Positions 1 through 26,701 of a stretch of 64,000 bases of DNA are shown here, piece by piece. How positions within the stretch are numbered: position 1 is the stretch's first letter; every line of letters starts with the position of its first letter. Where the stretch lies: the NCBI RefSeq assembly GCF_001677475.2, contig NZ_CP015229.1; one strand, given 5' to 3'. The stretch is from Escherichia coli. Its GTDB lineage: Bacteria; Pseudomonadota; Gammaproteobacteria; Enterobacterales; Enterobacteriaceae. Under the pieces are notes generated by a model, which saw only the letters and a program-made list of their open reading frames with translations, had not been told where the DNA came from and searched no databases. The position numbers and the translations under genes are program-made.

Positions 1-2506
1 TTTCCCATGCGTGAGCACCGGTGGCATAAGGCTTCACCACACCGTCAATACAGGTAGCCAGCCACAGGGAAACAGATTCCTCAGCCAGACGTGTCGACAG
101 CTTTTCCGGAAGGTAATCGTTGATATTGGCGGCATAGCCAGGCTTGAAGTTCAGGACAAACTTTTTAGCCATTGCACGATCGCAGTAATATTTGCCCACT
201 TGCTCCTGCTCGCTGCGGGCAAATCCTTCCGGCATTACCACGTCCTCACCGTAGACTGATTCAATAAGAAGGCGGGCTGCGTGTGGCATTTGAATAGCGC
301 CTTGCTCACGCAGTACACGCTGCGTCAGCCAGATTCGTCCATGATCGGGATAGACATATGCACTGTTACGCATGGCACTGCCGAACCATTCGTCACCAGG
401 AGCGTCGTCCCAGACGGGGGCCAGAATCAGCAATTCAGGAGGGGAACGCTCGTCTTTTCCGTCACGCTTTAACTGACCATTAATATCGCGGATATGCCGC
501 TGTAATCGCCCCGCCCGTTGGATCAGCAAATCAACAGAGGCCAGGTCGGAGATCATTTCGTCCAGGTCAATATCCACACTTTGTTCAATTACTTGCGTAC
601 AAACAATGACTTGCGATAATCTCTGTAAACTACAACTTTTACCAAAGCGTGCCAACGTTTCCGTTTCAATTCGCTGGCGATCGCTAAAAGCAAAGCGGCT
701 ATGAAAAAGAGAAAGGCTGGAAGCAGGAATGACGCCGCGGGCAAGTAACTGACGATAAACTTTAATAGCATCATCGACAGAATTCCGGATCCAGGCGATG
801 CATTTCCCCTGACTTACCGCCGATTCGATACGCGCAATACACTCTTGTTCGCTATGAAGCCAACCCACGCTCACGCTACGCTCAACGTCTTTGCGCGTCG
901 CTACCCGGTGTGAATGCACATCGGATTTCGTAACGTGCGTCAGCCAGGGGTAATCATCCTTTTCCAGGAACGGAGCTTCTTGCTGGCCCTCTGTACCACG
1001 CGCAAAGGCAGCAACGAGTTTGTCGCGCTGCTGTTGAGATAACGTGGCAGAAAGCAAAATGACGCTGTTTCCGCCACGCGCCTGCAGCTCGATCAGCCCT
1101 TCAAGAATGCATGACATGTAAGCGTCACAGGCATGGATCTCATCAGCCAGCAGGATTTTGTTACTCAGTCCCAGAAGCCGCAGATTATTATGTTTGAACG
1201 GCATCACAGCCATCATCGCCTGATCCAGCGTGCCGACGCCAATTTCAGCCAGCAACGCCTTCTTGTTACTGTCAGCAAACCAGGCCGCACATCCCTGGCT
1301 GAAAGCTTGTTCATCCGGTTCTTCTGACCCGACTAAATCACCGGACCAGAGTGATTCATTAAAGCGGTCCATTAATGTGCGGGCACTGTGTGCCAGCACC
1401 AGGCTGGGGCGGGATTGTGGCGAATAGAAAGCAAGCCAGGTTTTGACCAGCCGATCGTACATGGCATTGGCCGTTGCCATTGTTGGCAGGCCAAAAAACA
1501 AACCCTGCGCTTTCCCCGCAGCCATCAACCTGTGCGCCAGGATAAGCGCCGCTTCTGTTTTACCTGCGCCGGTTACATCCTCCAGAATAAATAACTGTGG
1601 TCCCGGCTGGCTGATATCCAGATCCAGCACCTTTTGCTGTAGCGGTGTCGGATTCTCAATAAAAGGAAACAGCGTATTAATTCCGGTGAAAGGCGCGGTT
1701 TCTGCTTTTGGAGGAAAGACGGTTAAGGCGTTTTGAGCCTGAACTAAAGTTTTCTGCCAGTAATCTTCAATATCCATTGTCTGTGCGACGCGTGGAAAAA
1801 ATCGCGTTGACGATCCCGTCCAGTCTGCAAGTACGACGGTTGCAGAGATATACCAGGAAAGTTGTTTTATAAGTTCAACGCCCTCGTCATCATCCCAGAA
1901 TGTGGGGATCTCTATGAGCGGAAACAGTGCCTTGATTGCAAGGAGAAAATCTCGTGCGGCAGCTTTGTCTTCAGGCAGAAAGTTGTCCAGTTCATCCATA
2001 CGGTCAGGAGGCCGACCATGATGCCCGGTAGTTATGGGCATCCACATATCTATTACCCGTTTGAGCTTGCGCGGAGAGAGTGAAGATGCAGGAAGCAATT
2101 CTTCGCATTCACTTAAATAATGGTGCCACAACCAGTAACCCAGCGTTGAATGAGAGATTTTTTCGTAATTTTTTCTAGAGCTTTCCGGAACCTTGAGTTG
2201 CGGGTGCAGGTAAAGTTGCTGAAAAGAGCGGGCAAATTTTCCAGTATCGTGCCAGCACAATAGCCAGGCGAAAAATTGTGCTGCCTGCTCCGTATCAGCG
2301 AAACCTAGTTGACGAAAATAGTCAGCCAGCCCGAAGCAATTGCTTTTAACCATTAAATAGCCCATCGCGGCTACATCCAGCGAATGCCAGCAAAGAAGGT
2401 GATAGTCGTCGCCCCCGTCTTTCTCGCCGCGTCGGGTTTTTCCCCAGAAATCAAAAAAAGTCACAATATTTTTATCCTTCAGTAAACTTAAAGGATATTT
2501 ACGCAT
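1..2506 (-). CDS. cas3: Cas3 (HD nuclease + SF2 helicase), CRISPR-associated; C-terminus lies outside the window
   Basis: Minus-strand frame is open from the ATG at 2504-2506 to the window edge (about 835 codons, no stop seen; absent from the ORF track because its stop is off-window). Translation begins MRKYPLSLLKDKNIVTFFDFWGKT and contains HD-domain motifs (LLCWHSLDVAAMG, WHDTGKF), Walker A (EDVTGAGKTEAALILA) and a DExH box (LLADEIHACD). Start codon uncertain (in-frame GTG at 2462-2464 is an alternative). Confidence 0.8.
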   Translation of the reverse strand, partial: MRKYPLSLLKDKNIVTFFDFWGKTRRGEKDGGDDYHLLCWHSLDVAAMGYLMVKSNCFGLADYFRQLGFADTEQAAQFFAWLLCWHDTGKFARSFQQLYLHPQLKVPESSRKNYEKISHSTLGYWLWHHYLSECEELLPASSLSPRKLKRVIDMWMPITTGHHGRPPDRMDELDNFLPEDKAAARDFLLAIKALFPLIEIPTFWDDDEGVELIKQLSWYISATVVLADWTGSSTRFFPRVAQTMDIEDYWQKTLVQAQNALTVFPPKAETAPFTGINTLFPFIENPTPLQQKVLDLDISQPGPQLFILEDVTGAGKTEAALILAHRLMAAGKAQGLFFGLPTMATANAMYDRLVKTWLAFYSPQSRPSLVLAHSARTLMDRFNESLWSGDLVGSEEPDEQAFSQGCAAWFADSNKKALLAEIGVGTLDQAMMAVMPFKHNNLRLLGLSNKILLADEIHACDAYMSCILEGLIELQARGGNSVILLSATLSQQQRDKLVAAFARGTEGQQEAPFLEKDDYPWLTHVTKSDVHSHRVATRKDVERSVSVGWLHSEQECIARIESAVSQGKCIAWIRNSVDDAIKVYRQLLARGVIPASSLSLFHSRFAFSDRQRIETETLARFGKSCSLQRLSQVIVCTQVIEQSVDIDLDEMISDLASVDLLIQRAGRLQRHIRDINGQLKRDGKDERSPPELLILAPVWDDAPGDEWFGSAMRNSAYVYPDHGRIWLTQRVLREQGAIQMPHAARLLIESVYGEDVVMPEGFARSEQEQVGKYYCDRAMAKKFVLNFKPGYAANINDYLPEKLSTRLAEESVSLWLATCIDGVVKPYATGAHAWE

Positions 2507-2640
2507 ATATTAAAAATTATCTGTGATATATATCGTTCAATAAAATATTTACATTATGAATAATCAAATAATTTTCATCCGTAATATATATGAATAATAA
2601 ACATAGGCATAATATTCACATAAACAATATAAATTAAAAA
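2507..2640 (-). promoter_or_regulatory. AT-rich tract immediately upstream of cas3; probable cas3 promoter region
   Basis: About 130 bp of roughly 80% A+T directly 5' of the cas3 start; position fits a promoter. H-NS-type silencing of E. coli cas promoters is established knowledge; no -35/-10 assigned. Confidence 0.35.
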
Positions 2641-3117
2641 AGGGTGCAGGAGACCAAACCATCACAATTCAGTACGCGGGGTTTTATCCCCGCGTGGTGG
2701 CTACTTCTTCGATTCGTAAGCGAAAACTGCCTTAAACTCCATACCACGTTCTCTGATACTCAACTCACACAACGAGTCGCCTACCATCAGCGTGAATCAT
2801 CGTACTGTACAACACAGTACGATGATTGCCACAAGGGCATATTTTGTCAGCATGTCTTGCCTCCCTGCAAAGAAGAGACTAACATTCGAATTGTTTGGGT
2901 TCGAACGTAAGCCTCAGGTTGATAGAAATATCGCCTGGGGCTTTTGTCCATCTGGAACCTCGCGAATGCTTAACGCCAGACAGCCTCAAGCACCCGACGC
3001 CATTCTATACCTGATAATTCTTCCAGCGGCGTTCACGTTTAAAATCAGGAATGCTGCTCGCAAAATAAAAACGCCCCCATCATTTCTGACAGAGGCGTTT
3101 AATTTATCCGGCAATAT

Positions 3118-3852
3118 CTACCCTTCGTGTAACCCACATTCCCTTTTTAAGCCAAAGAAACGAGTTTCTTCTTCCGCCATGCCGGGTTCCCATTTACGGG
3201 TTGTATGGGTATCGCCCACCGATAAATATCCTTCGTCCCATAATGGGTGATATTTCAGGCCATGTTTTTGCAGATACTGATATATCGTTCGGTTATCCCA
3301 GTCGATAATCGGCAGCACTTTAAATACGCCACGCTGAATTGCCAGCACCGGTAAATTGGCGCGACTGCCGGATTGTTCGCGGCGCAGGCCAGCAAACCAC
3401 GTTTGCGCATTCAGTTCTTTCAGCGCCCGGTTCATCGGTTCGACTTTGTTGATGTCATTGTACTTTTCAATGCCTTCAACGCCCTGCTCCCATAGTTTTC
3501 CGTAACGTGCTTCCTGCCAGGCGGCGCTTTCGGTAGCGCGGTACACTTTCAGGTTGAGCTTGAGTTTGTCCGTTAACTCGTCAATAAAGCGGTAGGTTTC
3601 CGGGAACAAGTAACCCGTATCGGTGAGGATCACTGGAATATCCGGGCGAATCTGATTCACCAGATGCAGGCTCACCGCCGCCTGAATGCCGAAACTGGAA
3701 GAAAGTACATATTCACCGGGCAGATTATCCAGCGCCCAGGCAACGCGGCCTTCAGCGTCCAGTTTTTCCAGTTCGGCGTTAGTTTCTGCCAGCGCCAGAA
3801 TGCGATCTACCTTCGGCAGTTCGTTCAGGGCGTTTAGATCGAGTTTGGACAT
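3118..3852 (-). CDS. cysH: phosphoadenosine phosphosulfate (PAPS) reductase
   Basis: 244-aa frame [15 protein letters not shown]...KRECGLHEG; recognised as CysH. ORF-track entry 3118..4005 extends to an upstream in-frame start that I do not use. Confidence 0.93.
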
Positions 3853-3873
3853 AGATTCCTCACTGTTTGCCTT

Positions 3874-3906
3874 GCCTGATGCGACGCTCACGCGTCTTAT
3901 CAGGCC
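3874..3906. repeat. REP (repetitive extragenic palindrome) between cysH and cysI
   Basis: Imperfect palindrome GCCTGATGCGACGCTCACGCGTCTTATCAGGCC, the typical REP consensus. Confidence 0.7.
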
Positions 3907-3925
3907 TACAAGACCGGGCTGATGG

Positions 3926-5638
3926 TTAATCCCACAAATCGCGCGCCGGATCGAGCACCGGGCGAATGATGCCCGCACGCACCGTAAAGTCGCCGAAGCC
4001 TTCACCCGCTTCGCGCTCTTTCGCCCAGCGCCCTATCAGTTCATCAAGCGACGCCAGGATTTCCGGTTCGGTGATGTTTTCTTTATACATCCGTGGGATA
4101 CGTGTCCCAATGCGGTTGCCGCCAAGATGCAGGTTGTAGCGACCCGGCGCTTTACCCACCAGGCCCACTTCCGCCAGCATCGCGCGACCACAACCGTTCG
4201 GGCAGCCTGTTACACGCATCACGATATGCTCATCGCTGACACCATGTTTCGCCATTAAATTATCGATGTTGTCGATAAAAGACGGCAGGAAACGCTCCGC
4301 TTCCGCCATCGCCAGCGGGCAAGTCGGGAATGACACGCAGGCCATTGAGTTTTCACGCTGCGGCGTGACGGCATTCATTAACCCGCTCTCTTTAGCGATC
4401 TTCTCGATCTTTGCTTTCTCACTTTCCGGCACACCGGCGATGATCAGATTCTGGTTCGCCGTAATGCGGAAATCACCTTTGTGGATCTTCGCGATCTCCA
4501 GCAGGCCGGTTTTCAGCGGACGCCCAGGATAATCAAGGATGCGACCATTTTCGATAAACAGCGTCAGGTGCCAGTTATCATCAATGCCTTTAACCCAGCC
4601 AATACGATCGCCACGTCCGGTAAATTCATACGGGCGGATAGGTTCGAACTTGACCCCCGCACGACGTTCCACTTCCGCTTTAAACGTCTCAATACCCACG
4701 CGCTCCAGCGTGTATTTGGTTTTGGCATTTTTACGATCGGTTCGATTACCCCAGTCACGCTGAGTCGTCACGACGGCTTCCGCCACCGCCAGCGTATGCT
4801 CCAGCGGCAGATAGCCAAACTCGCTCGCGGTGCGGGCGTAGGTTTTTTTGTTACCGTGTTCGATGGAAAGCCCACCGCCCACCAGCAGGTTAAAGCCCAC
4901 CAGCTTGCCGTTTTCGGCGATCGCCACGAAGTTCATGTCGTTGGCGTGCAGATCGATATCGTTCTGCGGCGGGATCACTACCGTGGTTTTGAATTTACGC
5001 GGCAAATAAGTCTGACCGAGGATCGGTTCTTCATCGGTGGTGGCGACTTTTTCCTGATCGAGCCAGATCTCCGCATACGCGCGGGTACGCGGCAGCAGAT
5101 GTTCAGATATTTTCTTCGCCCATTCATAAGCTTCCGCGTGCAGCTGCGACTCGTAAGGGTTCGAGGTGCAGAGTACGTTACGGTTCATGTCGTTAGCAGT
5201 CGCCAGCGCATCAAGACCGACCGAGTGCAGCATCTGGTGCACCGGTTTGACGTTCTTTTTCAGAATGCCGTGGAACTGAAACGTCTGGCGGTTGGTCAGG
5301 CGAATGCTGCCATAGATGGTGTTTTCACCGGCAAATTTGTCTATCGCCTGCCACTGTTTGGTGGTGATCACGCCACCCGGCAGACGGCAGCGCAACAGCA
5401 TCGCGTGGCGCGGCGCCAGCTTCTGTTCAGCACGTTCGGCGCGGATGTCGCGGTCATCCTGCTGATACATGCCGTGGAAGCGGATCAGCAGGAAGTTGTC
5501 GCCCTTAAAGCCGCCGGTCAGACCGTCGTTTAAATCTTCCGCAATGGTGCCGCGCAGGTAGTTGCTTTCAAGCTTCATGCGCTCGGCGTCTGTCAGTTTT
5601 CCTTCGACCACTAAAGGCCCTGGATGTTTTTCGCTCAT
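3926..5638 (-). CDS. cysI: sulfite reductase (NADPH) hemoprotein beta subunit
   Basis: 570-aa ORF; recognised CysI sequence with the C-terminal Cys cluster (TGCPNGCGR). Confidence 0.95.
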
Positions 5639-7437
5639 TAGTAGACATCTCGCTGATAACGGCGCTCTACGCGCAGCTCACTTAAAAATTCATCCGCCGC
5701 TTCGGTGTCCATGCCACCAAATTCGGCAATCACTTCCAGAAGTGCCTGCTCAACGTCTTTCGCCATGCGATTAGCGTCGCCGCAGACATAAATGTGGGCA
5801 CCGTCATTGATCCAGCGCCACAGCTCCGCGCCCTGTTCGCGCAGTTTGTCTTGTACGTAAACTTTTTCTTTTTGATCGCGCGACCAGGCGAGATCGATAC
5901 GTGTCAGCACGCCCTCTTTGACGTAGCGCTGCCACTCCACCTGGTAGAGGAAATCTTCCGTAAAGTGCGGGTTGCCAAAGAACAGCCAGTTTTTACCCGG
6001 CGCTTCATCGGCAGCACGTTGCTGCATAAAGGCGCGGAACGGCGCGATGCCGGTGCCTGGGCCAATCATAATCACCGGGGTTTCCGGGTTAGCGGGCAGG
6101 CGGAAGTTATCGTTATGTTCGATAAAGACGCGGACTTCGCCCTCTTCTTCCACGCGGTCAGCGAGGAAGCTGGAGGCACCACCGGCACGGGCGCGGCCTT
6201 CCACGTCGTAACGCACCACACCAACGGTAACGTGCACTTCGTTCTCGACTTCCGCCTGCGAGGAGGCGATGGAATACAGGCGCGGGGTCAGCGGGCGCAG
6301 CAGATTAATCAGCGCTTCGGCATCCAGTTGCGCCGGAGAGAAACGCACCATGTCGACAATCGGCGTCGTCGCGGCGTAATGCTGTAACTTCGCTTTATCG
6401 CCCACCAGCGGCAGCAGCGTTTCGCTGCGCGTTAAGGTAGCGTAGTTCTCAACGATATTGGCGGTGTTGACGGTTAGTTCGAAGTGCCACTGTAGCGCTT
6501 CGTTCAGAGGCAACGTTTTGCCCTCGACGGTGACAGGTTCATCGCCTTTCAGCCACAGCAGTTCGACAAGTTCTTTCACCAGTGCCGGATCGTTTTGATA
6601 CCAGACGCCCAGCGCATCGCCCGGCTGATAACGCAGACCAGAGTCACCTAAGTCAATTTCGATATGGCGAACGTCTTTTTCAGAGTTACGCCCGGTAATT
6701 TTCTGGTTAACCGAAAGGCTGGCCACCAGCGGCGCGTCTTTGCTATACGGGCTGGTGTGGATTTCATTTACCGCGCCAGTAGCGACGGATTGCGAAGGTG
6801 CCGCGACAGGCGCACGCGATTTAAGCGCATCAACCACGCGGGCGCGCCACTCGCTGGCAGCAGCCTGGTATTCAACATCGGCATCGACACGGTCGAGCAG
6901 GCGTTCACCACCCAGTTCCGCCAGCTTGCTGTCAAAATCTTTCCCGGACTGGCAGAAAAATTCATAAGAGCTATCGCCGAGGCTAAACACGGCAAACGCG
7001 GTGTTTTCCAGCTTTGGCGCTTTTTTGGAGAACAGGAACTTATGCAGCGCGACGGCTTCTTCCGGCGGTTCCCCTTCCCCTTGCGTTGACGTCACCACGA
7101 TAAGCAGTTTTTCGCTGGCGATTTGTTTGAATTTATAGTCGCCCGCGTTCACCAGCTTAACGTTCAGTTTTGCCGCTAATAAATCATCGCGTAATGCTTC
7201 AGCAACCCGGCGCGCATTGCCGGTTTGCGAAGCGGAGATAATAGTTATACCCGGCATTTCTGCGGCGGGCGCTGGCGTCGCTGCAAGCGCAGCAGGCTGC
7301 TGGTTGAGCACGCCCCAGAAATAGCCAGAAACCCAGGCAAGCTGGGTGGGAGTTAAATCGGTCGTGGCCGCCTGAAGGCGTGCCAGTTGCTCCGGGTTCA
7401 ACGGAAGCAACGCGGAAGGTGGGACCTGTGTCGTCAT
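5638..7437 (-). CDS. cysJ: sulfite reductase (NADPH) flavoprotein alpha subunit
   Basis: 599-aa ORF with flavodoxin-like and FAD/NADPH-binding regions; its stop overlaps the cysI start by 1 nt, consistent with a cysJIH operon. Confidence 0.95.
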
Positions 7438-7752
7438 GCGTCGTTATGTTCCAGTAAGCAAAGCTGTTTCTGCGCCCTGTCAGCGCCCATAAAACAGAAG
7501 AGAAGGTAAGGTTAACGGGGTGAACGGTGTGGATTAAAGACGGGATAGCGATAACTAATAACCAAATCGACTAACCTGTTTTAGCAATAGTCTTTAACAA
7601 CAAAACAGATTAACCAACCCAATGAAAAACAAATGAATTTAGCCAATCATTAAGATAAATTAGCGATTTTGCGCAACAAAGTCGTTTTAGATAATGCGAA
7701 AAAACAGCCTTTCCGGTACTCTACGGCGGTTTTATCGTCCTGTAGAGAAATT

Positions 7753-8118
7753 ATGATGTCCACCACGTTATTTAAAGATTTCACCTTCGAAGCCGCTCAC
7801 CGCTTACCACACGTCCCGGAAGGACATAAATGTGGTCGCCTGCACGGGCATTCCTTTATGGTGCGACTGGAAATTACCGGGGAAGTCGATCCGCATACGG
7901 GCTGGATTATCGATTTCGCTGAACTGAAAGCGGCGTTTAAGCCAACTTATGAGCGCCTCGATCACCATTATCTCAATGATATTCCAGGCCTGGAAAACCC
8001 GACCAGCGAGGTTTTAGCAAAATGGATTTGGGATCAGGTTAAACCCGTTGTGCCGCTGTTAAGTGCGGTGATGGTAAAAGAAACCTGCACCGCAGGTTGT
8101 ATCTATCGCGGCGAATGA
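7753..8118 (+). CDS. queD: 6-carboxy-5,6,7,8-tetrahydropterin synthase (queuosine biosynthesis)
   Basis: 121-aa frame [33 protein letters not shown]...; ORF-track entry 7669..8118 is an N-terminal over-extension. Confidence 0.9.
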
Positions 8119-8195
8119 TAAGAGTGTGTCGGCGGTCAATTTCCCTTAAGTAACGCTATGTTAGGGTATTGTGTTCTGGATATCTGGGGCATGAC

Positions 8196-9467
8196 ATGGA
8201 AGACGACTGCGACATTATTATTATTGGTGCCGGTATTGCAGGCACCGCTTGCGCGTTACGCTGCGCGCGAGCGGGTTTATCCGTTTTGTTACTGGAACGC
8301 GCTGAAATCCCCGGCAGCAAAAATCTTTCCGGCGGGCGTTTATATACCCAGGCGCTCGCGGAACTCCTCCCACAATTTCATCTGACCGCGCCTCTTGAAC
8401 GACGCATCACTCACGAAAGCCTTTCCCTGTTAACGCCGGATGGCGCAACGACGTTTTCCAGCTTACAGCCCGGCGGTGAATCCTGGAGTGTATTACGTGC
8501 ACGTTTCGATCCGTGGCTGGTTGCCGAAGCCGAAAAAGAAGGTGTCGAATGCATCCCTGGTGCGACGGTGGATGCGCTGTATGAAGAAAACGGCAGGGTG
8601 TGTGGTGTCATTTGTGGTGACGATATTCTCCGCGCCCGTTATGTGGTGCTGGCAGAAGGTGCCAACAGCGTCCTGGCTGAACGTCACGGGTTAGTGACTC
8701 GTCCTGCTGGCGAAGCGATGGCGTTGGGGATCAAAGAAGTGCTGTCGCTGGAAACATCCGCTATTGAAGAACGTTTTCATCTGGAGAATAACGAAGGCGC
8801 AGCGTTGCTGTTCAGCGGCGGGATCTGTGATGACTTACCCGGCGGCGCATTTCTTTATACTAATCAACAAACGCTCTCGTTAGGGATTGTTTGCCCGCTC
8901 TCTTCCCTTACGCAAAGTCGTGTTCCGGCAAGCGAGCTGCTGGCTCGCTTTAAAACGCATCCGGCAGTGCGCCCGCTTATCAAAAACACGGAATCACTGG
9001 AGTATGGTGCGCATCTGGTGCCAGAAGGTGGCTTGCACAGTATGCCGGTGCAATACGCCGGTAACGGCTGGCTGCTGCTGGGCGATGCGTTGCGCAGTTG
9101 CGTCAATACCGGAATTTCCGTGCGCGGCATGGATATGGCGCTAACTGGCGCGCAGGCGGCGGCACAAACGCTGATAAGCGCCTGCCAGCATCGCGAGCCG
9201 CAAAATCTGTTTGCGCTTTATCATTACAACGTAGAGCGCAGCCTGCTGTGGGATGTTCTACAGCGCTATCAGCATGTTCCGGCGCTTTTGCAACGCCCTG
9301 GCTGGTATCGGGCGTGGCCTGCGCTAATGCAGGATATTTCCCGTGATTTATGGGATCAGGGTGATAAACCTGTTCCGCCGCTGCGCCAGTTGCTCTGGCG
9401 TCATTTACGTCGTCATGGCCTGTGGCATCTGGCGGGCGATGTTGTCAGGAGTATTCGATGTCTGTAG
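8196..9467 (+). CDS. ygcN: FixC-like electron-transfer-flavoprotein:quinone oxidoreductase (FAD-dependent)
   Basis: 423-aa frame from ATG 8196 (MEDDCDIIIIGAGIAGTACAL... with a GxGxxG FAD fold), GGGG Shine-Dalgarno 6-8 nt upstream; ORF-track start 8169 is a TTG extension. Confidence 0.88.
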   Translation: MEDDCDIIIIGAGIAGTACALRCARAGLSVLLLERAEIPGSKNLSGGRLYTQALAELLPQFHLTAPLERRITHESLSLLTPDGATTFSSLQPGGESWSVLRARFDPWLVAEAEKEGVECIPGATVDALYEENGRVCGVICGDDILRARYVVLAEGANSVLAERHGLVTRPAGEAMALGIKEVLSLETSAIEERFHLENNEGAALLFSGGICDDLPGGAFLYTNQQTLSLGIVCPLSSLTQSRVPASELLARFKTHPAVRPLIKNTESLEYGAHLVPEGGLHSMPVQYAGNGWLLLGDALRSCVNTGISVRGMDMALTGAQAAAQTLISACQHREPQNLFALYHYNVERSLLWDVLQRYQHVPALLQRPGWYRAWPALMQDISRDLWDQGDKPVPPLRQLLWRHLRRHGLWHLAGDVVRSIRCL

Positions 9468-9718
9468 CCCGTAATCTCTGGCGCGCTGCTGATGCGCCGC
9501 ACATTGTTCCGGCTGACTCCGTTGAGCGTCAGACGGTACAACGGTTGATTAACGCTTGTCCGGCTGGTCTTTTTTCGCTCACACCGGAAGGTGACTTACG
9601 CGTTGATTATCGCGGCTGCCTGGAGTGTGGCACCTGCCGTTTGCTGTGCGACGAATCAACACTACAACAGTGGCGCTATCCGCCTTCCGGATTCGGCATC
9701 ACCTACCGTTTTGGATAA
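9458..9718 (+). CDS. ygcO: FixX-like ferredoxin-like protein
   Basis: 86-aa frame MSVARNLWRA...CLECGTCRLLCDES; AGGAG 6 nt upstream of the ATG; overlaps the ygcN 3' end by 10 nt. Confidence 0.85.
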   Translation: MSVARNLWRAADAPHIVPADSVERQTVQRLINACPAGLFSLTPEGDLRVDYRGCLECGTCRLLCDESTLQQWRYPPSGFGITYRFG

Positions 9719-9734
9719 ATAATAAGGATAATTT

Positions 9735-10310
9735 ATGCCCCTCTTACACCTGCTCCGCCAGAATCCGGTGATTGCTGCCGTTAAAGATAATGCCAGCCTG
9801 CAACTGGCAATCGACTCTGAATGCCAGTTTATTTCCGTGTTGTACGGCAATATCTGCACCATTAGTCAAATCGTTAAAAAGATTAAAAATGCCGGAAAAT
9901 ATGCTTTTATTCATGTTGATTTGCTGGAAGGCGCGTCAAATAAAGAAGTGGTGATTCAGTTTTTGAAACTGGTGACTGAGGCGGATGGAATTATCAGCAC
10001 CAAAGCATCGATGCTAAAAGCGGCAAAAGCGGAAGGTTTTTTCTGTATTCATCGTCTGTTTATTGTTGATTCAATTTCGTTTCACAACATTGATAAGCAA
10101 GTTGCGCAATCGAATCCGGATTGTATTGAGATCCTGCCAGGCTGTATGCCCAAAGTGCTGGGCTGGGTGACGGAGAAAATCCGCCAACCGCTGATTGCCG
10201 GCGGGCTGGTGTGCGATGAAGAAGATGCGCGTAATGCGATTAACGCGGGTGTTGTGGCGCTTTCCACCACGAATACCGGGGTCTGGACGTTAGCGAAAAA
10301 ATTGCTTTGA
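9735..10310 (+). CDS. ygcP: GlpP-family putative transcription antiterminator
   Basis: 191-aa ORF; size and sequence fit the GlpP (glycerol-3-phosphate-responsive antiterminator) family as annotated for E. coli YgcP. Confidence 0.85.
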   Translation: MPLLHLLRQNPVIAAVKDNASLQLAIDSECQFISVLYGNICTISQIVKKIKNAGKYAFIHVDLLEGASNKEVVIQFLKLVTEADGIISTKASMLKAAKAEGFFCIHRLFIVDSISFHNIDKQVAQSNPDCIEILPGCMPKVLGWVTEKIRQPLIAGGLVCDEEDARNAINAGVVALSTTNTGVWTLAKKLL

Positions 10311-10344
10311 CGGGATACTCGTAACGAGTTGAATTTGTGTGATT

Positions 10345-10460
10345 TGTAGGCTGCACGCCACATCCGACATTCAGCGCCTGATACGACGCTTGACGCTTGA
10401 CGCGTCTTATCAGGCTTGCAAGTCCCCAGCCCAGAACCGTAGGCAGGATCATCCGGCAGC
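10345..10460. repeat. BIME / REP cluster between convergent ygcP and ygcQ
   Basis: REP-type palindromes, including GCCTGATACGACGCTTGACGCTTGACGCGTCTTATCAGGC (10376-10415) and flanking GC-rich REP-like arms. Confidence 0.65.
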
Positions 10461-10463
10461 ACG

Positions 10464-11324
10464 TTATTGGCAATCTGCGTGAATGGTTGTCACCAGTGCC
10501 TCCAGTACCGCTTTCCAGTCATCTACCACGCCAACATCTGCCTGTGAAAATACCGCTGCGCTGGCGTCATGATTAATCGCCACCACAAACTTGCTATTGC
10601 GTACGCCCGCCATTAACGCTGCTGCGCCGGAAGCGCCAACAACAATGCACACCTCAGGCGCCAGCAGATGTCCGGAAATACCAATCACTTTTTCAGCATC
10701 AACGCCACCGTTCATCACTCGCGCCCGACTGTAGCCCACTTCGGCTCCCAGCTTTTCTGCCAGCATAGCAATTTCCTGGTTATCTGCCTCTCCGCCCTGC
10801 CCCACCACCAGCACCTGTCTGGCCTCAGCTAATGGGTCGCGGGTAACATTTTTCAGGTTTTCTATGCTAACCAGCCAGTCGGGAAGCGCACCTGGGACAA
10901 TGTTCAGTTGCTGCATACCAGAGGGCAACGTGGCGTTTTTATCTGCTCCCGCCTGACGTGCCAGCGAAAGGCATAGCGGGCGTTTTTCTGTTTGCAGCGT
11001 CGCCGTTAGCGCATTTCCCCAGTGGGATTTGCGCACGCTTACGGTTGGAATATCTAACGAAGTCACCTGGCAGATGCTTGCACCATGTAAACGCCAGGCC
11101 AGCCGGGTCGACAGTTCATCGCCAAATGTTCCCGGCGGAAAGAGAACAACGTCCGCAGGCGTTCGCTGCCACTGTTCCACCAGCGCATCCAGCACCTGTT
11201 CCGCCACTACGGGCTGTGGTTCAATCTGCCAGTGCGCCAGCGTACAACCGCTGAAATCCTGCGCCGCCAGCCAGCTCGCTATTGCGGCATTCTCCTGATT
11301 TATTGTCACAATTGCGATATTCAT
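10464..11324 (-). CDS. ygcQ: electron transfer flavoprotein alpha-subunit-like (FixB-like)
   Basis: 286-aa frame from MNIAIVTINQ...; its ATG overlaps the ygcR stop (ATGA), suggesting translational coupling. Confidence 0.85.
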   Translation of the reverse strand: MNIAIVTINQENAAIASWLAAQDFSGCTLAHWQIEPQPVVAEQVLDALVEQWQRTPADVVLFPPGTFGDELSTRLAWRLHGASICQVTSLDIPTVSVRKSHWGNALTATLQTEKRPLCLSLARQAGADKNATLPSGMQQLNIVPGALPDWLVSIENLKNVTRDPLAEARQVLVVGQGGEADNQEIAMLAEKLGAEVGYSRARVMNGGVDAEKVIGISGHLLAPEVCIVVGASGAAALMAGVRNSKFVVAINHDASAAVFSQADVGVVDDWKAVLEALVTTIHADCQ

Positions 11325-12100
11325 GGCTGCATCCTTTGGCGTAAATAGTCCTGCCATAGCTTTTGCGCTTTTTCTGCTACCGTTTGCCCATCAATCAGCG
11401 TCGCTCCGCGTCGTTGCTCTGCTCTTGCCAGTTGCAGACACTGCATCGCTGGCATTTCGGCAGCAACAGTTTTACGGATAATTTCTGCTTTCCCCGCCGC
11501 CATTCGCTGACGCATTCCCGGTACTGGCAAGGCCACTTCACCGCACTGACGCACGGCAATCACCGCAGGCAAGCGAACCCGGCAACAGCGCAGCCCGTTT
11601 TCAGTACGCTGTTCGAGGGTGATAAACGGCGCGTCGAGAGTAAAACGCTCCACCTGGGTGAAGCAGGGCCAGCCCAGCATTTCCGCCAGCAAAAATGGCG
11701 TTTGCCCATTCTGCCCTTCGCTGCTTTGGCAGCCGGTAATTATCAGATCCAGCGGATTCTGACGCTGCCATTCGGCAATATGGCGAGCGACAAATTCCGG
11801 CGCAAAGCGCAGATCTGCCGCCGTCTCCAGCAATACAGCTTCCTCAAACCCAAGCGCCATGAGATAGCGCAGCCAGTGCAACGCCCGTTCATTCCCCATG
11901 CTCAACGCGGTTAAAGACATCGACGTACCGTTTTTTCTCTGCGCCAACAGCAGCGCGGCGGCAGCCTGTTCATCAGCACCGAGTAAACTTCGCAGAAACG
12001 AAACATCCGGTCCGCTATTACCCTGAGCCGCCGCCTGCCACTCTTTTTCCGCCAGCATTCCGGCATCCGGTTCGGCTTTAAACGCTAACAGAATGTTCAT
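11321..12100 (-). CDS. ygcR: electron transfer flavoprotein beta-subunit-like (FixA-like)
   Basis: 259-aa ORF with ETF-beta-like sequence. Confidence 0.88.
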   Translation of the reverse strand: MNILLAFKAEPDAGMLAEKEWQAAAQGNSGPDVSFLRSLLGADEQAAAALLLAQRKNGTSMSLTALSMGNERALHWLRYLMALGFEEAVLLETAADLRFAPEFVARHIAEWQRQNPLDLIITGCQSSEGQNGQTPFLLAEMLGWPCFTQVERFTLDAPFITLEQRTENGLRCCRVRLPAVIAVRQCGEVALPVPGMRQRMAAGKAEIIRKTVAAEMPAMQCLQLARAEQRRGATLIDGQTVAEKAQKLWQDYLRQRMQP

Positions 12101-13415
12101 TCGTACCTCCTACATTTCCCGCCGCCACCAGCGGGAGTGCTTTGGTTTCTGGTGCCCATAGCCAGGTCACGACAAAACCAACCAACAACACTGCCGCCAG
12201 GAGCAATAAGGTGACTTGCATTCCCCACTGCGCCAGCACCCACGGCAGCAGGCCAGTACTTACCGCCGCGCCCAACCGACTCATGGCGGTGGCAAAACCG
12301 ACGCCCAGCGAGCGAATGTCAGTAGGAAAACTTTCCGCAGGCAAAATGCCCACCAGATTACTGACTGCCGAAATGGTGGTGCTGAAGAGAACAAAAAGCA
12401 GCAGCGTTAATGAACTGCCGGAAGGCAAACAGGCCATCACGACCAGCGTTGCCGCCAGCAGCAAAAAACTTCCCAGCAAAAATTTGCGATGTGCCAGCAG
12501 GTGCGTCAGAACTAATCCCAGCAGCGCACCCACAATTAACAACGCATTAAGCATCAGGCTAGCGGTCAACGCATCTTCCAGACCAATAGTCTGGGCGATA
12601 GTTGGCAGCCAGGTATAAATCACAAACCATGGGATTACGAGGCAGACAAAGAAGACACTGTTAAACGCCGTGCGCCGCCAGTAGCGCGAAGAGAACAAGG
12701 TTTTGATGTGTTTATGGGTCGCCGTTGCCACTTCATCGCCCAGTAAAACATGGGGACCAAAATAGCGATGCACGATAGCGTGAGCTTCAGCAAAACGCCC
12801 CTGTCGCAGTAGCCAGCGTGGCGATTCTGGCGTTCCCCAGCGTAATAACGTAATCAATAACGCGGGCAGAGCTGCCGATGCCAGCAGCCAGCGCCAGGCC
12901 TCCGGGCTTTCGCTAATAAAGTGATGTCCGGCAATACTTGCCAGCACATAGCCTACGGTCCACACCACGCTGAACGCGCCCAGCAAAATACCGCGGTGGC
13001 GGCGCGGGGAAAATTCAGCCAGCAAGGTGTGACCGACTGAGTAATCGCCTCCCAGACCAATGCCAATCAAAATGCGCAGTCCAATAAGATGCTCTGGCGT
13101 GGTGGCAAAAAATTGTAAAAACGAAGCAAGCGTAATCAGCAAAAAGCTGAAGGTGAAGATTTTTTGTCGCCCAATATGGTCGGAGATCCAGCCCAGAACC
13201 AGGCTGCCAAGAAACAAACCAAGGAGTGCTGAGCCGCCAATCATTCCCGCCATAAACGGCGTCAGTTGCATGGCGGGCGTAAGCTGAATAATGGCGTAAC
13301 CAATGACGCCGAGGACATAACCGTCGGTCAGGTGTGCGCCGAAAGTGAGCGCAGCAATGCGGCAGTGAAAACGGTTAAGTGGTAAATCATCCATTCGCAC
13401 CGGTGAAGTGTTCAT
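12078..13415 (-). CDS. ygcS: MFS transporter (sugar-porter-like)
   Basis: 445-aa frame from MNTSPVRMDDLPL...; multiple hydrophobic helices; AAGGGG Shine-Dalgarno 6 nt upstream; 3' end overlaps ygcR by 23 nt. Confidence 0.85.
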   Translation of the reverse strand: MNTSPVRMDDLPLNRFHCRIAALTFGAHLTDGYVLGVIGYAIIQLTPAMQLTPFMAGMIGGSALLGLFLGSLVLGWISDHIGRQKIFTFSFLLITLASFLQFFATTPEHLIGLRILIGIGLGGDYSVGHTLLAEFSPRRHRGILLGAFSVVWTVGYVLASIAGHHFISESPEAWRWLLASAALPALLITLLRWGTPESPRWLLRQGRFAEAHAIVHRYFGPHVLLGDEVATATHKHIKTLFSSRYWRRTAFNSVFFVCLVIPWFVIYTWLPTIAQTIGLEDALTASLMLNALLIVGALLGLVLTHLLAHRKFLLGSFLLLAATLVVMACLPSGSSLTLLLFVLFSTTISAVSNLVGILPAESFPTDIRSLGVGFATAMSRLGAAVSTGLLPWVLAQWGMQVTLLLLAAVLLVGFVVTWLWAPETKALPLVAAGNVGGTNEHSVSV

Positions 13416-13508
13416 CTTTACCCCTTCATTGTCCGGTAATAAGAACGGCTTCTCGCCTGAGAAGCCGAAAAGGCAACGCTCCGTCATCGCGGAACGCTGC
13501 CTGACACA

Positions 13509-14963
13509 TTATTTTTCAATCGGATAGATAGTACCCGTATTCATAATGCCGTTAGGATCGAACTGCTTTTTCAGCCCTTCCAGCAACGCCCACGCGCTGC
13601 CGTGTTCCAGTTTGCTCCAGTGAACGCGATGTTTACCGATACCGTGGTGGTGCACCATCGAACCACCGAGGCGAATGGTTTCTTCGCAGATGATTTTGTT
13701 GAGCGGATTGTGGTACTTGTCGATTTCCTCTTCCGGCTTACAGTCAACGACGTTGTAGTCGTAGACGAAGTACATGTTGGTGCCGTTCTGGTAGCTATGA
13801 GAGGAGTGACCGCCCAGCATGGTGATGTCGTCGGCGTGCGGGAACTCGGTACGAATACGGTTAATAACGCTTTCGTAGATTTCGTGAATGCAGCTCCAGC
13901 AGCCGGACACTTCGGTGGTAAAGCCCATGTTGCCGGTTTTGAGGATCTGCACACGTTCAGCGGCCACTTTATCCGGCCCCCAGTTCAGGTGATTAAACCA
14001 GGTTTCGATCAGCTTGCTGTCCACTCGCTGGCATTGCGGGTAACGTGCCACGATTTCCGCAATCCCTTCGCCTGTCGCCTTCGCAATGCGAGGGTTACCT
14101 TCAGCCATAAAGATCAGCACACATTTACCATCGGCAAAATGGGTGAAGTGTTGGGTGCCATCTTCAGCGTCATACAAACGAGCGATCGACGGACGATACC
14201 CTTCCACCATGATTTCACGCAGGATGTTGAAGCCGGTTTTCATGTCTTCCAGGATATAGCCGTAGAAGAGGTTGTTTTCCGGGGTGAACTTAAAGATTTT
14301 CACAGTTACTTCAGTGATATAGCACAATGCACCTTCGTTGCCGATGATGATGTGACGAATGTCCGGGCCTGCCGCGCGGCGTGGTACGTTTTTAATGCGT
14401 GTTACGGTGCCATCAGCCAATACTGCTTCCAGACCAACGACCATATCTTCGATTGCGCCGTAGAGTGTGGAGAACTGCCCGATACTGCGGGTTGCTACCA
14501 GGCCGCCCATCTGCGCCAGCGGCTTTGACTGCGGAGAATGCCCCGTGGTGTAACCTTTTTCACGCAACGCGTTTTCCAGCACTTCCAGCGGAACACCGCA
14601 TTGCGCCGTGGCCTGCATATTCTCAATATCAATATTAATGATTTGATTCATGGCAGAGCCGTCGAGCACCACCGAGTTTTCCACAACGGTTTCCAGCCCA
14701 CCTTCGGTGGCGGAAGCACCGGTACGTGGCACACCGTTAATTTTGTGCGCATTCATAAAATTCAGCACACGGGATACTTGTTCTGTGGAACCGAGTTTTA
14801 CGACCGCTGCCGGAATCGGCAAAGTATAAATGCCATGAATATCCGGAAATTTACGAAAACGGTCAATACTGTTCTTCTTTAATACTGTTTCATCGGTAAT
14901 TATGCGATCTGCACCAACAATTTCCTTTAGCTGGTCGACAATCGCTGCGCGAGATAAAGACAT
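13509..14963 (-). CDS. ygcU: FAD-linked oxidase / dehydrogenase (alkyl-DHAP-synthase-like family)
   Basis: 484-aa ORF MSLSRAAIVDQLKEIVGADRI...; FAD-binding PCMH-type fold. Confidence 0.88.
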   Translation of the reverse strand: MSLSRAAIVDQLKEIVGADRIITDETVLKKNSIDRFRKFPDIHGIYTLPIPAAVVKLGSTEQVSRVLNFMNAHKINGVPRTGASATEGGLETVVENSVVLDGSAMNQIINIDIENMQATAQCGVPLEVLENALREKGYTTGHSPQSKPLAQMGGLVATRSIGQFSTLYGAIEDMVVGLEAVLADGTVTRIKNVPRRAAGPDIRHIIIGNEGALCYITEVTVKIFKFTPENNLFYGYILEDMKTGFNILREIMVEGYRPSIARLYDAEDGTQHFTHFADGKCVLIFMAEGNPRIAKATGEGIAEIVARYPQCQRVDSKLIETWFNHLNWGPDKVAAERVQILKTGNMGFTTEVSGCWSCIHEIYESVINRIRTEFPHADDITMLGGHSSHSYQNGTNMYFVYDYNVVDCKPEEEIDKYHNPLNKIICEETIRLGGSMVHHHGIGKHRVHWSKLEHGSAWALLEGLKKQFDPNGIMNTGTIYPIEK

Positions 14964-15032
14964 AGTAATTCCTTCCTGATAATAAAAATGGAATAATCAT
15001 TAATAAGAGAAAACAGAAACCACCGTTATGGA

Positions 15033-18919: not shown

Positions 18920-18965
18920 ATGAGGTAGGCCGGGCGGAAAACTGCCCGGCCTGAACATACCTAAA

Positions 18966-19786
18966 TGGTTATCCCCGCTAACGCGGGGAACTCACTGAAA
19001 ACACCGGCGAGATCGTATTTTTTGCCGGTTTATCCCCGCTCGCGCGGGGAACTCTACCGGAAGGCAGGCACATTAGATCAGGTGATCGGTTTATCCCCGC
19101 TCGCGCGGGGAACTCCAGTGAGCGGAAGAAGAATGACTAACAGAGAGCGGTTTATCCCCGCTCGCGCGGGGAACTCCCCAGCCACAACAGCCACGCGTCG
19201 CGCTGTTCCGGTTTATCCCCGCTCGCGCGGGGAACTCGGAAACCGCCCCGGCGGTGGTTGGCTGTTTGCCGGTTTATCCCCGCTCGCGCGGGGAACTCTT
19301 TGCGCCGGAAATAGGAATCGTATTCGGTCTCGGTTTATCCCCGCTCGCGCGGGGAACTCTTATGCATCTCATCAAGCTTGTCGCCAAACGACGGTTTATC
19401 CCCGCTCGCGCGGGGAACTCTTAAATCGCGCTGGAAAAAAATGGTTTTTGCGCGGTTTATCCCCGCTCGCGCGGGGAACTCACACCCCGTTGCAATAAAT
19501 GGTCTGGGGGCTGCGGTTTATCCCCGCTCGCGCGGGGAACTCCAAACGCTTCTTCGTAGGCAGCACTGTAGGCCCGGTTTATCCCCGCTCGCGCGGGGAA
19601 CTCGGTGAAAAGATGAGTGCATACTGGTTTGTTTTCGGTTTATCCCCGCTCGCGCGGGGAACTCTCTTTTCCCGCTAATCACGACCAGATCCTGTCCGGT
19701 TTATCCCCGCTCGCGCGGGGAACTCGTAAAACCTCCTCGCGCCCACAATCGCAGCGGCGGTTTATCCCCGCTCGCGCGGGGAACTC
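18966..19786 (-). CRISPR. CRISPR array, 14 repeats (29 nt) and 13 spacers (32 nt each); orphan array between ygcE and queE
   Basis: Thirteen identical repeats CGGTTTATCCCCGCTCGCGCGGGGAACTC (plus-strand reading) at 19026, 19087, 19148, 19209, 19270, 19331, 19392, 19453, 19514, 19575, 19636, 19697 and 19758, plus one degenerate terminal repeat TGGTTATCCCCGCTAACGCGGGGAACTC at 18966-18993. AT-rich leader lies at the high-coordinate end, so the array is read on the minus strand. Confidence 0.97.
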
Positions 19787-19990
19787 TCTAAACATAACCT
19801 ATTATTAATTAATGATTTTTTAAGCCAGTCACAATCTACCAACTTTACAGGATCACACAAACAACACATCTATTATGTTAAAGAGCACTTAATCCATTGA
19901 TTGAAAAGGTAAATATTTAAAATAACTCTATACAAACTAAAATCTACCAAACTCCGACGTAATAATTTTCACCCCAGAGAAAAATTAACG
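19787..19990 (-). promoter_or_regulatory. CRISPR leader (AT-rich) containing the presumed array promoter
   Basis: About 200 bp of AT-rich sequence abutting the first perfect repeat, opposite the degenerate repeat; position and composition typical of a type I-E leader. Confidence 0.55.
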
Positions 19991-26047: not shown

Positions 26048-26117
26048 TGAATTGTCCTGAAAATTGCGGGTCTGTCAGGTGGAAACCTGTGACCAGAATA
26101 GAAGTGAGTAAGTAACA

Positions 26118-26453: not shown

Positions 26454-26701
26454 TACCAGACTTCCTTATCTTTCGGCTCCCCCCAGTCGATATTCTCGTG
26501 GAGGTTTTCCGGCGTGATGTCGTTGACCAGTTCAGCAAGCGTAAATACGGGCTCTTTACGCACTGGCTCAATAATTAATTTGCCATCCACCAGGTCAATC
26601 TTCACTTCATCATCAATATTCAGATTGAGCGCCTGCATTAACGTAGCCGGGATCCGCACTGCAGGAGAATTTCCCCAACGCTTTACGCTACTGTGGATCA
26701 T
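26453..26701 (-). CDS. mazE: MazE antitoxin
   Basis: 82-aa [50 protein letters not shown]... Confidence 0.96.

What the first reader, a model, noticed from the sequence alone, without database searches (positions are those of the whole stretch)
1..2506. cas3 allele whose N-terminus differs from the K-12 Cas3 as I recall it
The partial cas3 at the window edge begins MRKYPLSLLKDKNIVTFFDFWGKTRRGEKDGGDDYHLLCWHSLDVAAMGYL. My recollection of K-12 Cas3 is MEPFKYICHYWGKSS..., so this would be the divergent E. coli type I-E cas allele family rather than the K-12 one, while the flanking cysJIH region is conserved. This implies the rest of the cas operon lies just outside the window and that the array at 18966-19786 may be served by it. 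The comparison is from memory and needs alignment.
Basis: inference. Interest (0 to 1): 0.4.

Follow-up and report, generated by a model that had tools for sequence, protein, structure and literature searches.

The report
Common non-K-12 E. coli cas3 variant
The window edge holds the first 835 codons of an intact type I-E Cas3 nuclease-helicase gene of the "cas-E1" variant, which is well described, more common in E. coli than the K-12 variant, and therefore ordinary.

Summary
Window 1-2506 (minus strand) is an uninterrupted 835-codon start of a Cas3 gene with an HD nuclease domain and an SF2 helicase core.

This is the published cas-E1 (cas-EO, O157:H7-type) variant of Almendros et al. 2014 and Díez-Villaseñor et al. 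2013. The published E1-specific PCR primer matches window 2406-2425 exactly, and the E2 primer has no match. A hok/sok locus lies between cas3 and cysH, as described for strains without the K-12 variant. E1-type cas3 is in 2,777 of 5,426 complete E. coli genomes; K-12-type cas3 is in 1,177. K-12 is therefore the minority.

A public contig that is 100% identical to window 1-15638 continues past the window edge. It carries the full 899-aa cas3, then cse1, cse2, cas7, cas5 and cas6e, and the start of cas1, all intact. A near-identical relative adds full-length cas1, cas2 and the cas-adjacent array.

The array at 18965-19786 is the CRISPR-II (ygcE-queE) array. Its type I-E repeat matches the cas-adjacent repeat at 27 of 29 bases, and two spacers match temperate phages with the correct PAM. 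It can plausibly be served by this operon.

Already known; low interest.

The parts
1..2506 (-). cas3, cas-E1 variant: codons 1-835 of 899. The last 64 codons lie beyond window position 1.
   Evidence: Open frame. 98% identical to annotated E. coli N3 Cas3. The full 899-aa ORF is seen in the identical contig L003:13133-15832. Best PADLOC model is Cas3e, 955 bits.
1796..2446 (-). HD nuclease domain of Cas3 (aa 21-237)
   Evidence: PF18019 and TIGR01596. The H..LDVAA, HD(T)GK, GHHG and ADW.GS motifs are conserved against K-12 Cas3 and PDB 4q2c.
479..1591 (-). SF2 helicase core of Cas3 (aa 306-676)
   Evidence: TIGR01587 cas3_core. The TGAGKTE (Walker A), DEIH (motif II), SAT (motif III) and QRAGRLQRH (motif VI) motifs align to K-12 Cas3 and 4q2c.
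2406..2425 (+). Exact binding site of the published variant-specific PCR primer cas3E1-R
   Evidence: 0 mismatches. Primer sequence from PMC3903273 Methods. The E2 primer has no match within 3 mismatches.
2507..2700 (.). AT-rich cas3 upstream region, the presumed cas3 promoter region. The promoter itself was not located.
   Evidence: The intergenic region 2507-3117 has 40% GC against 51% for the window. The consensus promoter scan found nothing significant here. The promoter role is inferred.
2701..2853 (-). hok (Hok/Gef toxin) ORF, here a pseudogene with an in-frame TGA at codon 19
   Evidence: Annotated as Hok/Gef in N3 at the equivalent position. Translation shows the stop. The alignment shows CTGG in N3 against CGAT here.
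2838..2995 (-). hok/sok regulatory RNA region
   Evidence: Rfam RF01794 sok, 113 bits against a gathering score of 59.
3053..3073 (-). Binding site of the published primer cysH-F in the conserved intergenic region next to cysH
   Evidence: Exact match.
3118..3852 (-). cysH, the conserved flank
   Evidence: Equivalent to N3 cysH at L001:15118-15852. ORF.
18965..19786 (-). CRISPR-II (CRISPR2.3) array: 13 full repeats plus 1 degenerate terminal repeat, with 13 spacers of 32 nt. The repeat in crRNA sense is GAGTTCCCCGCGCGAGCGGGGATAAACCG.
   Evidence: It lies between ygcE (17441-18919) and queE (20126-20797), as in K-12.
19787..19990 (-). Leader of the CRISPR-II array (leader 2.3)
   Evidence: AT-rich. 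Nearly identical to the K-12-type leader 2.3 over the first ~165 nt next to the array.

Best explanation
Window 1-2506 (minus strand) encodes the first 835 of 899 residues of Cas3 from the cas-E1 (cas-EO, O157:H7-type) variant of the E. coli type I-E CRISPR-Cas system. It sits at the usual chromosomal site, iap - CRISPR2.1 - cas2 cas1 cas6e cas5 cas7 cse2 cse1 cas3 - hok/sok - cysHIJ.

The mechanism below comes from established knowledge of type I-E systems and is not shown here. Cas6e cuts repeat hairpins to make crRNAs. Cascade (Cse1, Cse2, Cas7, Cas5, Cas6e) finds protospacers flanked by an AAG or ATG PAM and forms an R-loop. Cse1 then recruits Cas3. The Cas3 HD domain nicks the displaced strand, and its SF2 helicase moves 3'->5' using ATP while degrading the DNA. 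Cas1-Cas2 add spacers at the leader-proximal repeat of both the cas-adjacent array and the distant CRISPR-II array at 18965-19786.

Shown here: gene identity, intact frames, conserved catalytic motifs, a complete operon in the same contig and its near-identical relative, compatible repeats and a conserved leader, and phage-matching spacers with a correctly oriented PAM.

Inferred: the enzyme activities, the expression state (probably H-NS-silenced, as in K-12, given AT-rich upstream regions), and that this operon built the present CRISPR-II array.
For: - **Cas3 domains:** HD and helicase domains pass curated cut-offs. Catalytic motifs are conserved against K-12 Cas3 and solved Cas3 structures 4q2c and 4qqw, E 4.5e-79 and 6.4e-62.
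- **Divergence from K-12:** 28% identity to K-12-type Cas3, against 98% to annotated E. coli N3 Cas3.
- **Primers:** the E1 primer matches exactly, the E2 primer is absent, and the cysH-F primer is present.
- **hok/sok:** present between cas3 and cysH, as published for strains without E2.
- **Frequency:** E1-type cas3 is in 2,777 of 5,426 complete genomes, always chromosomal. K-12-type is in 1,177.
- **Operon:** contig L003 is 100% identical to window 1-15638 and carries intact cas3, cse1, cse2, cas7, cas5 and cas6e, and the start of cas1. L004 (1 mismatch in 11,548 bases) carries full-length cas1, cas2, leader-A and 11 full plus 1 degenerate CRISPR-A repeats, then iap.
- **Subtype:** all eight proteins best-match type I-E models Cas3e, Cas8e, Cas11e, Cas7e, Cas5e, Cas6e, Cas1e and Cas2e.
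- **CRISPR-II array:** the repeat is 27/29 identical to the cas-adjacent repeat and forms the same 7-bp hairpin at -15.1 kcal/mol. Leader 2.3 is conserved with K-12.
- **Spacers:** two spacers match temperate phages at 31/32 and 30/32 bases, with CTT (= AAG PAM) on the leader side.
Against: - Nothing contradicts the identification.
- The last 64 codons of cas3 and the rest of the operon are not in the window. They were read from an identical contig (L003) and a near-identical one (L004).
- cas-gene GC is 51.2% here, against the published E1 mean of 53.5% (PMC3903273).
- The NCBIfam full-length equivalog NF007248 scores 419.9 bits, below its 569 cut-off.
- The CRISPR-II repeat is the T type with a rare loop change, whereas the array linked to E1 is the A type. 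Service of that array by E1 proteins is plausible but not proven.
- No expression or activity data exist for this strain.
Confidence: 0.95

Rival explanations
1. The cas3 here is a decaying remnant of a disrupted, non-functional cas locus, as occurs in many E. coli and Shigella through IS insertions and deletions. Under this reading the CRISPR-II array is an orphan.
For: - Some complete genomes carry IS421 inside this cas3 or have truncated loci (H5, H6, H14, H15).
- The neighbouring hok toxin gene is a pseudogene in this lineage.
- E. coli type I-E systems are generally silent in the laboratory (PMC3903273).
Against: - The window holds 835 codons without a stop, and the identical contig holds 899.
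- All catalytic motifs are kept.
- The six downstream genes in L003, and cas1 and cas2 in L004, have intact frames of normal length.
- All 13 full repeats of the CRISPR-II array share one derived variant, which implies turnover by acquisition.
Confidence: 0.04
2. The gene is a recent, strain-specific horizontal import of a foreign Cas3 (another subtype or another genus) that replaced the resident E. coli allele in this strain only.
For: - It is only 28% identical to K-12 Cas3.
- The cys-ygc flank is mosaic and is at best 96.9% identical to any complete genome.
Against: - The same allele family occupies the same locus in 51% of complete E. coli genomes.
- GC is 50%, like the genome's 51%.
- The I-F, I-G and other Cas3 models score far lower than Cas3e.
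- The literature identifies K-12's variant, with 45.6% GC, as the later replacement.
Confidence: 0.01

Closest known systems
E. coli cas-E1 (cas-EO, O157:H7-type) type I-E CRISPR-Cas variant (Almendros et al. 2014, mBio, PMC3903273; Díez-Villaseñor et al. 2013, RNA Biol, PMC3737337)
   Same: - Same locus and gene order.
- Exact match of the E1-specific cas3 primer.
- hok/sok lies between cas3 and cysH.
- Leader-A and CRISPR-A repeats (…GGGGAACAC) sit next to cas2 in the near-identical relative.
- The cas operon is 95.5% identical in DNA to an O157:H7 strain and 98% to strains N3 and GF43.
   Different: - This allele is a sub-variant. Most E1 genomes (2,302 of 2,777) are only 90-95% identical in cas3 DNA, and no complete genome exceeds 98.0% over the full length.
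- cas GC is 51.2%, against the published mean of 53.5%.
- hok carries a premature stop.
E. coli K-12 cas-E2 (cas-EK) type I-E system, the laboratory model (YgcB/Cas3, CasABCDE)
   Same: - Same subtype, chromosomal site, gene order and domain architecture.
- Same catalytic motifs and nearly the same 29-bp repeat.
- Cas1 is 85% and Cas2 86% identical.
- The CRISPR-II leader is shared.
   Different: - Interference proteins are very divergent: Cas3 28%, Cse1 21%, Cse2 undetectable by BLASTP, Cas7 30%, Cas5 35%, Cas6e 27%.
- GC is 45.6% against 51.2%.
- The CRISPR2.1 leader differs.
- There is no hok gene. Homology to the window resumes only at 2851.
- The published spacer-acquisition motif is CTT only for K-12, against CWT for E1.
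Solved type I-E Cas3 structures: Thermobaculum terrenum (PDB 4q2c) and Thermobifida fusca (4qqw, 6c66)
   Same: A full-length alignment covers the HD and helicase domains (E 4.5e-79 and 6.4e-62) with conserved motifs.
   Different: These are distant orthologues from other phyla. No solved structure of either E. coli variant appeared among the six hits.

Membership tests
Type I-E CRISPR-Cas (Cas3e) | N-terminal HD nuclease domain fused to an SF2 (DExH) helicase | tested here: met
   PF18019 at aa 21-237. TIGR01596 scores 88 bits (cut-off 43) and TIGR01587 scores 220.6 bits (cut-off 102). PADLOC Cas3e scores 955 bits.
Type I-E CRISPR-Cas (Cas3e) | Conserved catalytic motifs: HD, Walker A GKT, DExH, SAT and the motif VI arginines | tested here: met
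   WHDTGKF, TGAGKTE, ADEIHACD, LLSATL and QRAGRLQRH align with the K-12 and 4q2c motifs.
Type I-E CRISPR-Cas (Cas3e) | Signature genes cse1 (cas8e) and cse2 (cas11e) with cas7e, cas5e, cas6e, cas1e and cas2e in one operon | tested here: met
   The operon lies outside the window. It was read from L003 (100% identical to window 1-15638) and L004 (1 mismatch in 11,548 bases). Every protein best-matches its type I-E model and every frame is intact.
Type I-E CRISPR-Cas (Cas3e) | 29-bp palindromic type-2 repeat with ~32-nt spacers (61-bp period) | tested here: met
   Window array at 18965-19786 and the cas-adjacent array in L004. Hairpin fold.
Type I-E CRISPR-Cas (Cas3e) | Protospacers flanked by an AAG/ATG PAM (CTT/CAT on the other strand), with the PAM end toward the leader | tested here: met
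   Both spacers with phage matches have CTT on the leader side. The sample is only two.
Type I-E CRISPR-Cas (Cas3e) | Cascade-dependent nuclease/helicase activity and interference | not testable with these tools
   Requires biochemistry or in vivo assays.
NCBIfam NF007248 (PRK09694) Cas3 equivalog | Whole-protein score at or above the curated cut-off of 569 bits | tested here: not met
   The 835-aa fragment scores 419.9 bits. The full-length protein was not re-scored. The subfamily models TIGR01587 and TIGR01596 pass.
E. coli cas-E1 variant (Almendros 2014) | In-silico PCR positive with cas3E1-R plus cysH-F and negative with cas3E2-R | tested here: met
   Exact matches at 2406-2425 (+) and 3053-3073 (-). 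The E2 primer has no match within 3 mismatches.
E. coli cas-E1 variant (Almendros 2014) | hok/sok locus present between cas3 and cysH (absent in E2 strains) | tested here: met
   Rfam sok at 2838-2995 and the hok ORF at 2701-2853. The hok ORF has a premature stop.
E. coli cas-E1 variant (Almendros 2014) | Leader L1 (leader-A) and CRISPR-A repeats next to cas2 | tested here: met
   The L004 leader is identical to the leader of E1 strain N3 and clearly different from K-12's. The repeat is GTGTTCC… (= …GGGGAACAC). This was tested on the near-identical relative, not on the window itself.
E. coli cas-E1 variant (Almendros 2014) | cas-gene GC about 53.5% (E2 about 45.6%) | tested here: inconclusive
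   51.2% here. The K-12-type operon measured the same way gives 45.6%, matching the paper. The value is closer to E1 but below its mean.
E. coli K-12 cas-E2 variant | Near-identity to K-12 Cas3 and presence of the E2 primer site | tested here: not met
   28% protein identity, no megablast DNA match to the left of window 2851, and the E2 primer is absent.

The most novel reading that the evidence does not exclude
The CRISPR-II array of this lineage (18965-19786) consists entirely of a rare repeat variant. Its hairpin loop is GCGA instead of GCCA, and the exact variant occurs in only 40 of 5,426 complete genomes. It differs at two positions from the lineage's own cas-adjacent repeat.

New repeats are copied from the leader-proximal one. 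A uniform derived repeat with 13 unique spacers, two of them matching temperate phages with the correct PAM, would therefore mean the whole array was rebuilt by natural spacer acquisition after the mutation arose. A second, unrelated strain (MEI003) has 17 copies of the same variant and shares no spacers.

That would be evidence that the E1 system adapts in the wild at the distant array. Whether E. coli CRISPR is active in nature is still debated.
Probability: 0.3. Interest if true: 0.3.

Novelty: already known. Interest (0 to 1): 0.1.

Why it matters
It matters little beyond correct annotation. The two very different type I-E cas gene sets of E. coli, E1 and E2, were described in 2013-2014, with diagnostic primers, linked leaders and repeats, and a replacement model.

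The practical lesson is that K-12 is the atypical reference, so a "divergent" Cas3 in a wild E. coli is expected. About half of complete genomes carry this variant. Results from the K-12 system, such as PAM choice during acquisition, do not automatically apply to it.

For this window, the check establishes that the strain most likely has a complete and potentially functional type I-E system. The system would have two arrays, one of which lies inside the window.

Tried and rejected
- **Different Cas3 subtype:** rejected. The I-F model gives only a local E of 2.5e-4, the I-G model scores 96 bits against a cut-off of 400, and PADLOC ranks Cas3e far above Cas3b, Cas3c and Cas3g.
- **Pseudogene or IS-disrupted locus:** rejected. 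All frames are intact in the identical and near-identical contigs.
- **Divergent species or cryptic clade as the source of the window:** not established. The 3-25 kb stretch is at best 96.9% identical to any complete E. coli genome. The 40-62 kb stretch reaches 98.5%. A 1-kb sliding comparison shows a mosaic of 95-99.6%. This looks like a locally diverse, recombining region, and does not point to a separate species.
- **cas3 promoter:** the consensus promoter scan of 2400-3130 found one weak site, against 2.1 expected by chance. No cas3 promoter could be assigned.
- **Plasmid protospacers:** the plasmid search with the array returned mostly repeat-only hits to other CRISPR arrays. It added no protospacer beyond the phage-like one already seen.
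Full report
**Observation**

The frame runs off the window's left edge. The start codon at 2506 is the one RefSeq annotates for the 899-aa cas3 of E. coli N3, whose locus aligns base for base with the window.

The fragment carries a Cas3 HD domain (PF18019, aa 21-237) and a Cas3 helicase core. TIGR01587 scores 220.6 bits against a cut-off of 102. TIGR01596 scores 88 bits against a cut-off of 43. The full-length equivalog NF007248 scores 419.9 bits, below its 569 cut-off.

**Comparison with K-12**

I fetched a K-12-type laboratory strain (OV2; locus L002). BLASTP of the window fragment against it gives 28% identity over 816 aligned residues (E 2e-77). The difference covers the whole protein and is not confined to the N-terminus.

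The catalytic motifs are all kept: HLL..H.LDVAA, HD.GKF, TGHHG, TG.GKTE, DE.HA.D, LLSATL and QR.GRL.RH. They also align with solved type I-E Cas3 structures 4q2c (E 4.5e-79) and 4qqw/6c66.

At the DNA level, K-12-type sequence is not alignable with the window to the left of position 2851. From there on it is about 97% identical through cysH, cysI and cysJ.

**What it is**

This is the published cas-E1 variant. Almendros et al. 2014 (PMC3903273) describe two sharply different sets of type I-E cas genes in E. coli. E1 is the major set, shared with Salmonella and E. albertii, and is probably the primary one. E2 is a minor group that includes K-12 and has 45.6% GC. Díez-Villaseñor et al. 2013 (PMC3737337) call the same variants cas-EO (O157:H7) and cas-EK (K-12).

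- **Diagnostic PCR, reproduced in silico.** Primer cas3E1-R matches window 2406-2425 exactly. Primer cysH-F matches 3053-3073 exactly. Primer cas3E2-R has no match even with 3 mismatches.
- **hok/sok locus.** The paper states that a hok/sok locus is present in all strains except those with E2. The window has it, with Rfam sok at 2838-2995 and a hok ORF at 2701-2853.
- **GC content.** The cas genes of this lineage have 51.2% GC. The K-12-type operon measured the same way gives 45.6%, which matches the paper's E2 value.

**Frequency**

Among 5,426 complete E. coli genomes, 2,777 have megablast-detectable E1-type cas3, always on the chromosome. Of these, 2,466 cover at least 80% of the query. K-12-type cas3 is found in 1,177 genomes. 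The "divergent" allele is therefore the common one.

E1 itself is heterogeneous. Most copies are 90-95% identical to this allele. The best full-length match is 98.0% (strain N3), followed by 97.7% (strain GF43).

**The rest of the operon**

An exact-protein look-up with the window's CysI found NCBI contig AASZRA010000002.1 (assembly GCA_012665465.1; locus L003). It is 100% identical to window 1-15638 with no gaps, and it extends 6,075 bases beyond window position 1.

- **L003** carries the full cas3 (899 aa), cse1 (520 aa), cse2 (178 aa), cas7 (351 aa), cas5 (248 aa), cas6e (216 aa) and the start of cas1. All complete genes have intact frames.
- **L004** (GCA_043014985.2) differs from L003 by 1 base in 11,548. 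It continues with cas1 (307 aa), cas2 (97 aa), a leader identical to that of E1 strain N3, 11 full repeats plus a degenerate one of GTGTTCCCCGCGCCAGCGGGGATAAACCG (the published CRISPR-A type), and then iap.

All eight proteins best-match the type I-E models Cas3e, Cas8e, Cas11e, Cas7e, Cas5e, Cas6e, Cas1e and Cas2e.

**E1 against E2, protein by protein**

| Protein | Identity E1 vs E2 |
|---|---|
| Cas3 | 28% |
| Cse1 | 21% |
| Cse2 | no significant BLASTP match |
| Cas7 | 30% |
| Cas5 | 35% |
| Cas6e | 27% |
| Cas1 | 85% |
| Cas2 | 86% |

The divergence is concentrated in the interference genes. The adaptation module is much more similar. That fits with both variants using almost the same repeat and both being able to feed the shared CRISPR-II array.

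**The array at 18965-19786**

The array lies between ygcE (17441-18919) and queE (20126-20797). This is the CRISPR-II (CRISPR2.3) locus, as in K-12. It has 13 identical 29-bp repeats plus a degenerate terminal one, with 13 spacers of 32 nt.

The AT-rich leader lies to the right and is nearly identical to K-12's leader 2.3. The array is therefore read on the minus strand.

In crRNA sense the repeat is GAGTTCCCCGCGCGAGCGGGGATAAACCG. It differs from the lineage's cas-adjacent repeat at two positions:

- Position 2 is A instead of T, which is the published T/A repeat polymorphism.
- The third loop base changes the loop from GCCA to GCGA.

The 7-bp stem and its predicted stability of -15.1 kcal/mol are unchanged.

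Two spacers have phage matches:

- Spacer 19116-19147 matches phiV10, HK629 and O157 typing phages at 31 of 32 bases.
- Spacer 19360-19391 matches the Salmonella P22-like phages SE1 and ST160 at 30 of 32 bases.

In both cases the phage sequence continues with CTT on the leader side. This is the AAG PAM in the orientation expected for type I-E. CTT is used by both variants, whereas CAT would have been specific to E1. The PAM therefore confirms acquisition by a type I-E system but cannot say which variant did it.

The literature notes that CRISPR-II leaders are alike in E1, E2 and cas-less strains, and that resident systems insert into both arrays.

**Side observations**

- **Rare repeat variant.** The exact GCGA-loop repeat occurs in only 40 of 5,426 complete genomes. 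Strain MEI003 also carries E1-type cas3 and hok. It has 17 copies of the variant at the same locus, shares no spacer with the window, and has flanks only about 96% identical.
- **hok pseudogene.** The hok ORF has an in-frame TGA at codon 19. The same stop is in relative L006, and L005 has a TGA at codon 18. hok is intact in N3.
- **Uneven divergence.** The cys-ygc stretch is unusually diverse and mosaic compared with the right half of the window.

**Verdict**

The phenomenon is already known in detail. The gene is an ordinary member of the majority E. coli type I-E variant, most likely part of a complete system. Interest is low.

Noticed in passing
window 2701-2853 (-): The chromosomal hok (Hok/Gef toxin) ORF between cas3 and cysH has an in-frame TGA at codon 19 (…CCTVR*). 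Relative L006 shares it, L005 has a TGA at codon 18, and strain N3 has the intact 50-aa gene (CTGG there, CGAT here). The adjacent sok/hok-leader RNA region (Rfam RF01794, 2838-2995) is still recognisable. The toxin is probably inactivated in this lineage.
   Followed up: partly
window 2851: Homology to K-12-type genomes resumes exactly at 2851, inside the hok/sok locus. K-12 therefore keeps only the sok-side stub and lacks hok. Genomes without type I-E cas genes (e.g. E2348/69) match from 2635, so they keep hok.
   Followed up: partly
window 18965-19786: All 13 full repeats of the CRISPR-II array carry a rare loop variant (CGGTTTATCCCCGCTCGCGCGGGGAACTC on the + strand; loop GCGA in crRNA sense). 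The exact variant is in only 40 of 5,426 complete E. coli genomes. Strain MEI003 has 17 copies at the same locus with no shared spacers and flanks about 96% identical.
   Followed up: partly
window 19116-19147 and 19360-19391: Two spacers match temperate phages: phiV10, HK629 and O157 typing phages at 31/32, and Salmonella P22-like phages SE1 and ST160 at 30/32. Both protospacers are followed by CTT (AAG PAM) on the leader side.
   Followed up: yes
L003:13133-20816 and L004:10648-11861, against L002: Between the E1 and E2 variants, the interference proteins are 21-35% identical and Cse2 is not detectable by BLASTP. Cas1 and Cas2 are 85-86% identical with nearly equal GC. The two operons differ mainly in the interference module.
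   Followed up: partly
window 3000-25000 compared with 40000-62000: The cysHIJ-ygc-CRISPR-II stretch is at best 96.9% identical to any of 5,426 complete E. coli genomes. 1-kb blocks range from 95% to 99.6% against different strains. The fuc-sda stretch reaches 98.5%. This suggests a locally mosaic, recombining region next to the cas locus.
   Followed up: partly
window 26118-26701 (-): mazF (111 aa) and mazE (82 aa) lie between mazG and relA. The segment at about 26088-26779 is absent from strain MEI003, where mazG and relA are adjacent.
   Followed up: partly
window 39516-39875 (-), 58054-58259 (+), 61275-61317 (-), 62745-63039 (+): Ordinary RNA genes: CsrB, GcvB, the ES036 sRNA, and three identical tandem tRNA genes with a 110-bp period.
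   Followed up: no
window 1-2506: RefSeq names this same E1 gene inconsistently, as either "CRISPR-associated helicase Cas3'" or "helicase/endonuclease Cas3". The likely cause is that the full-length NCBIfam equivalog NF007248 scores below its cut-off for this variant (419.9 bits against 569 for the fragment).
   Followed up: no
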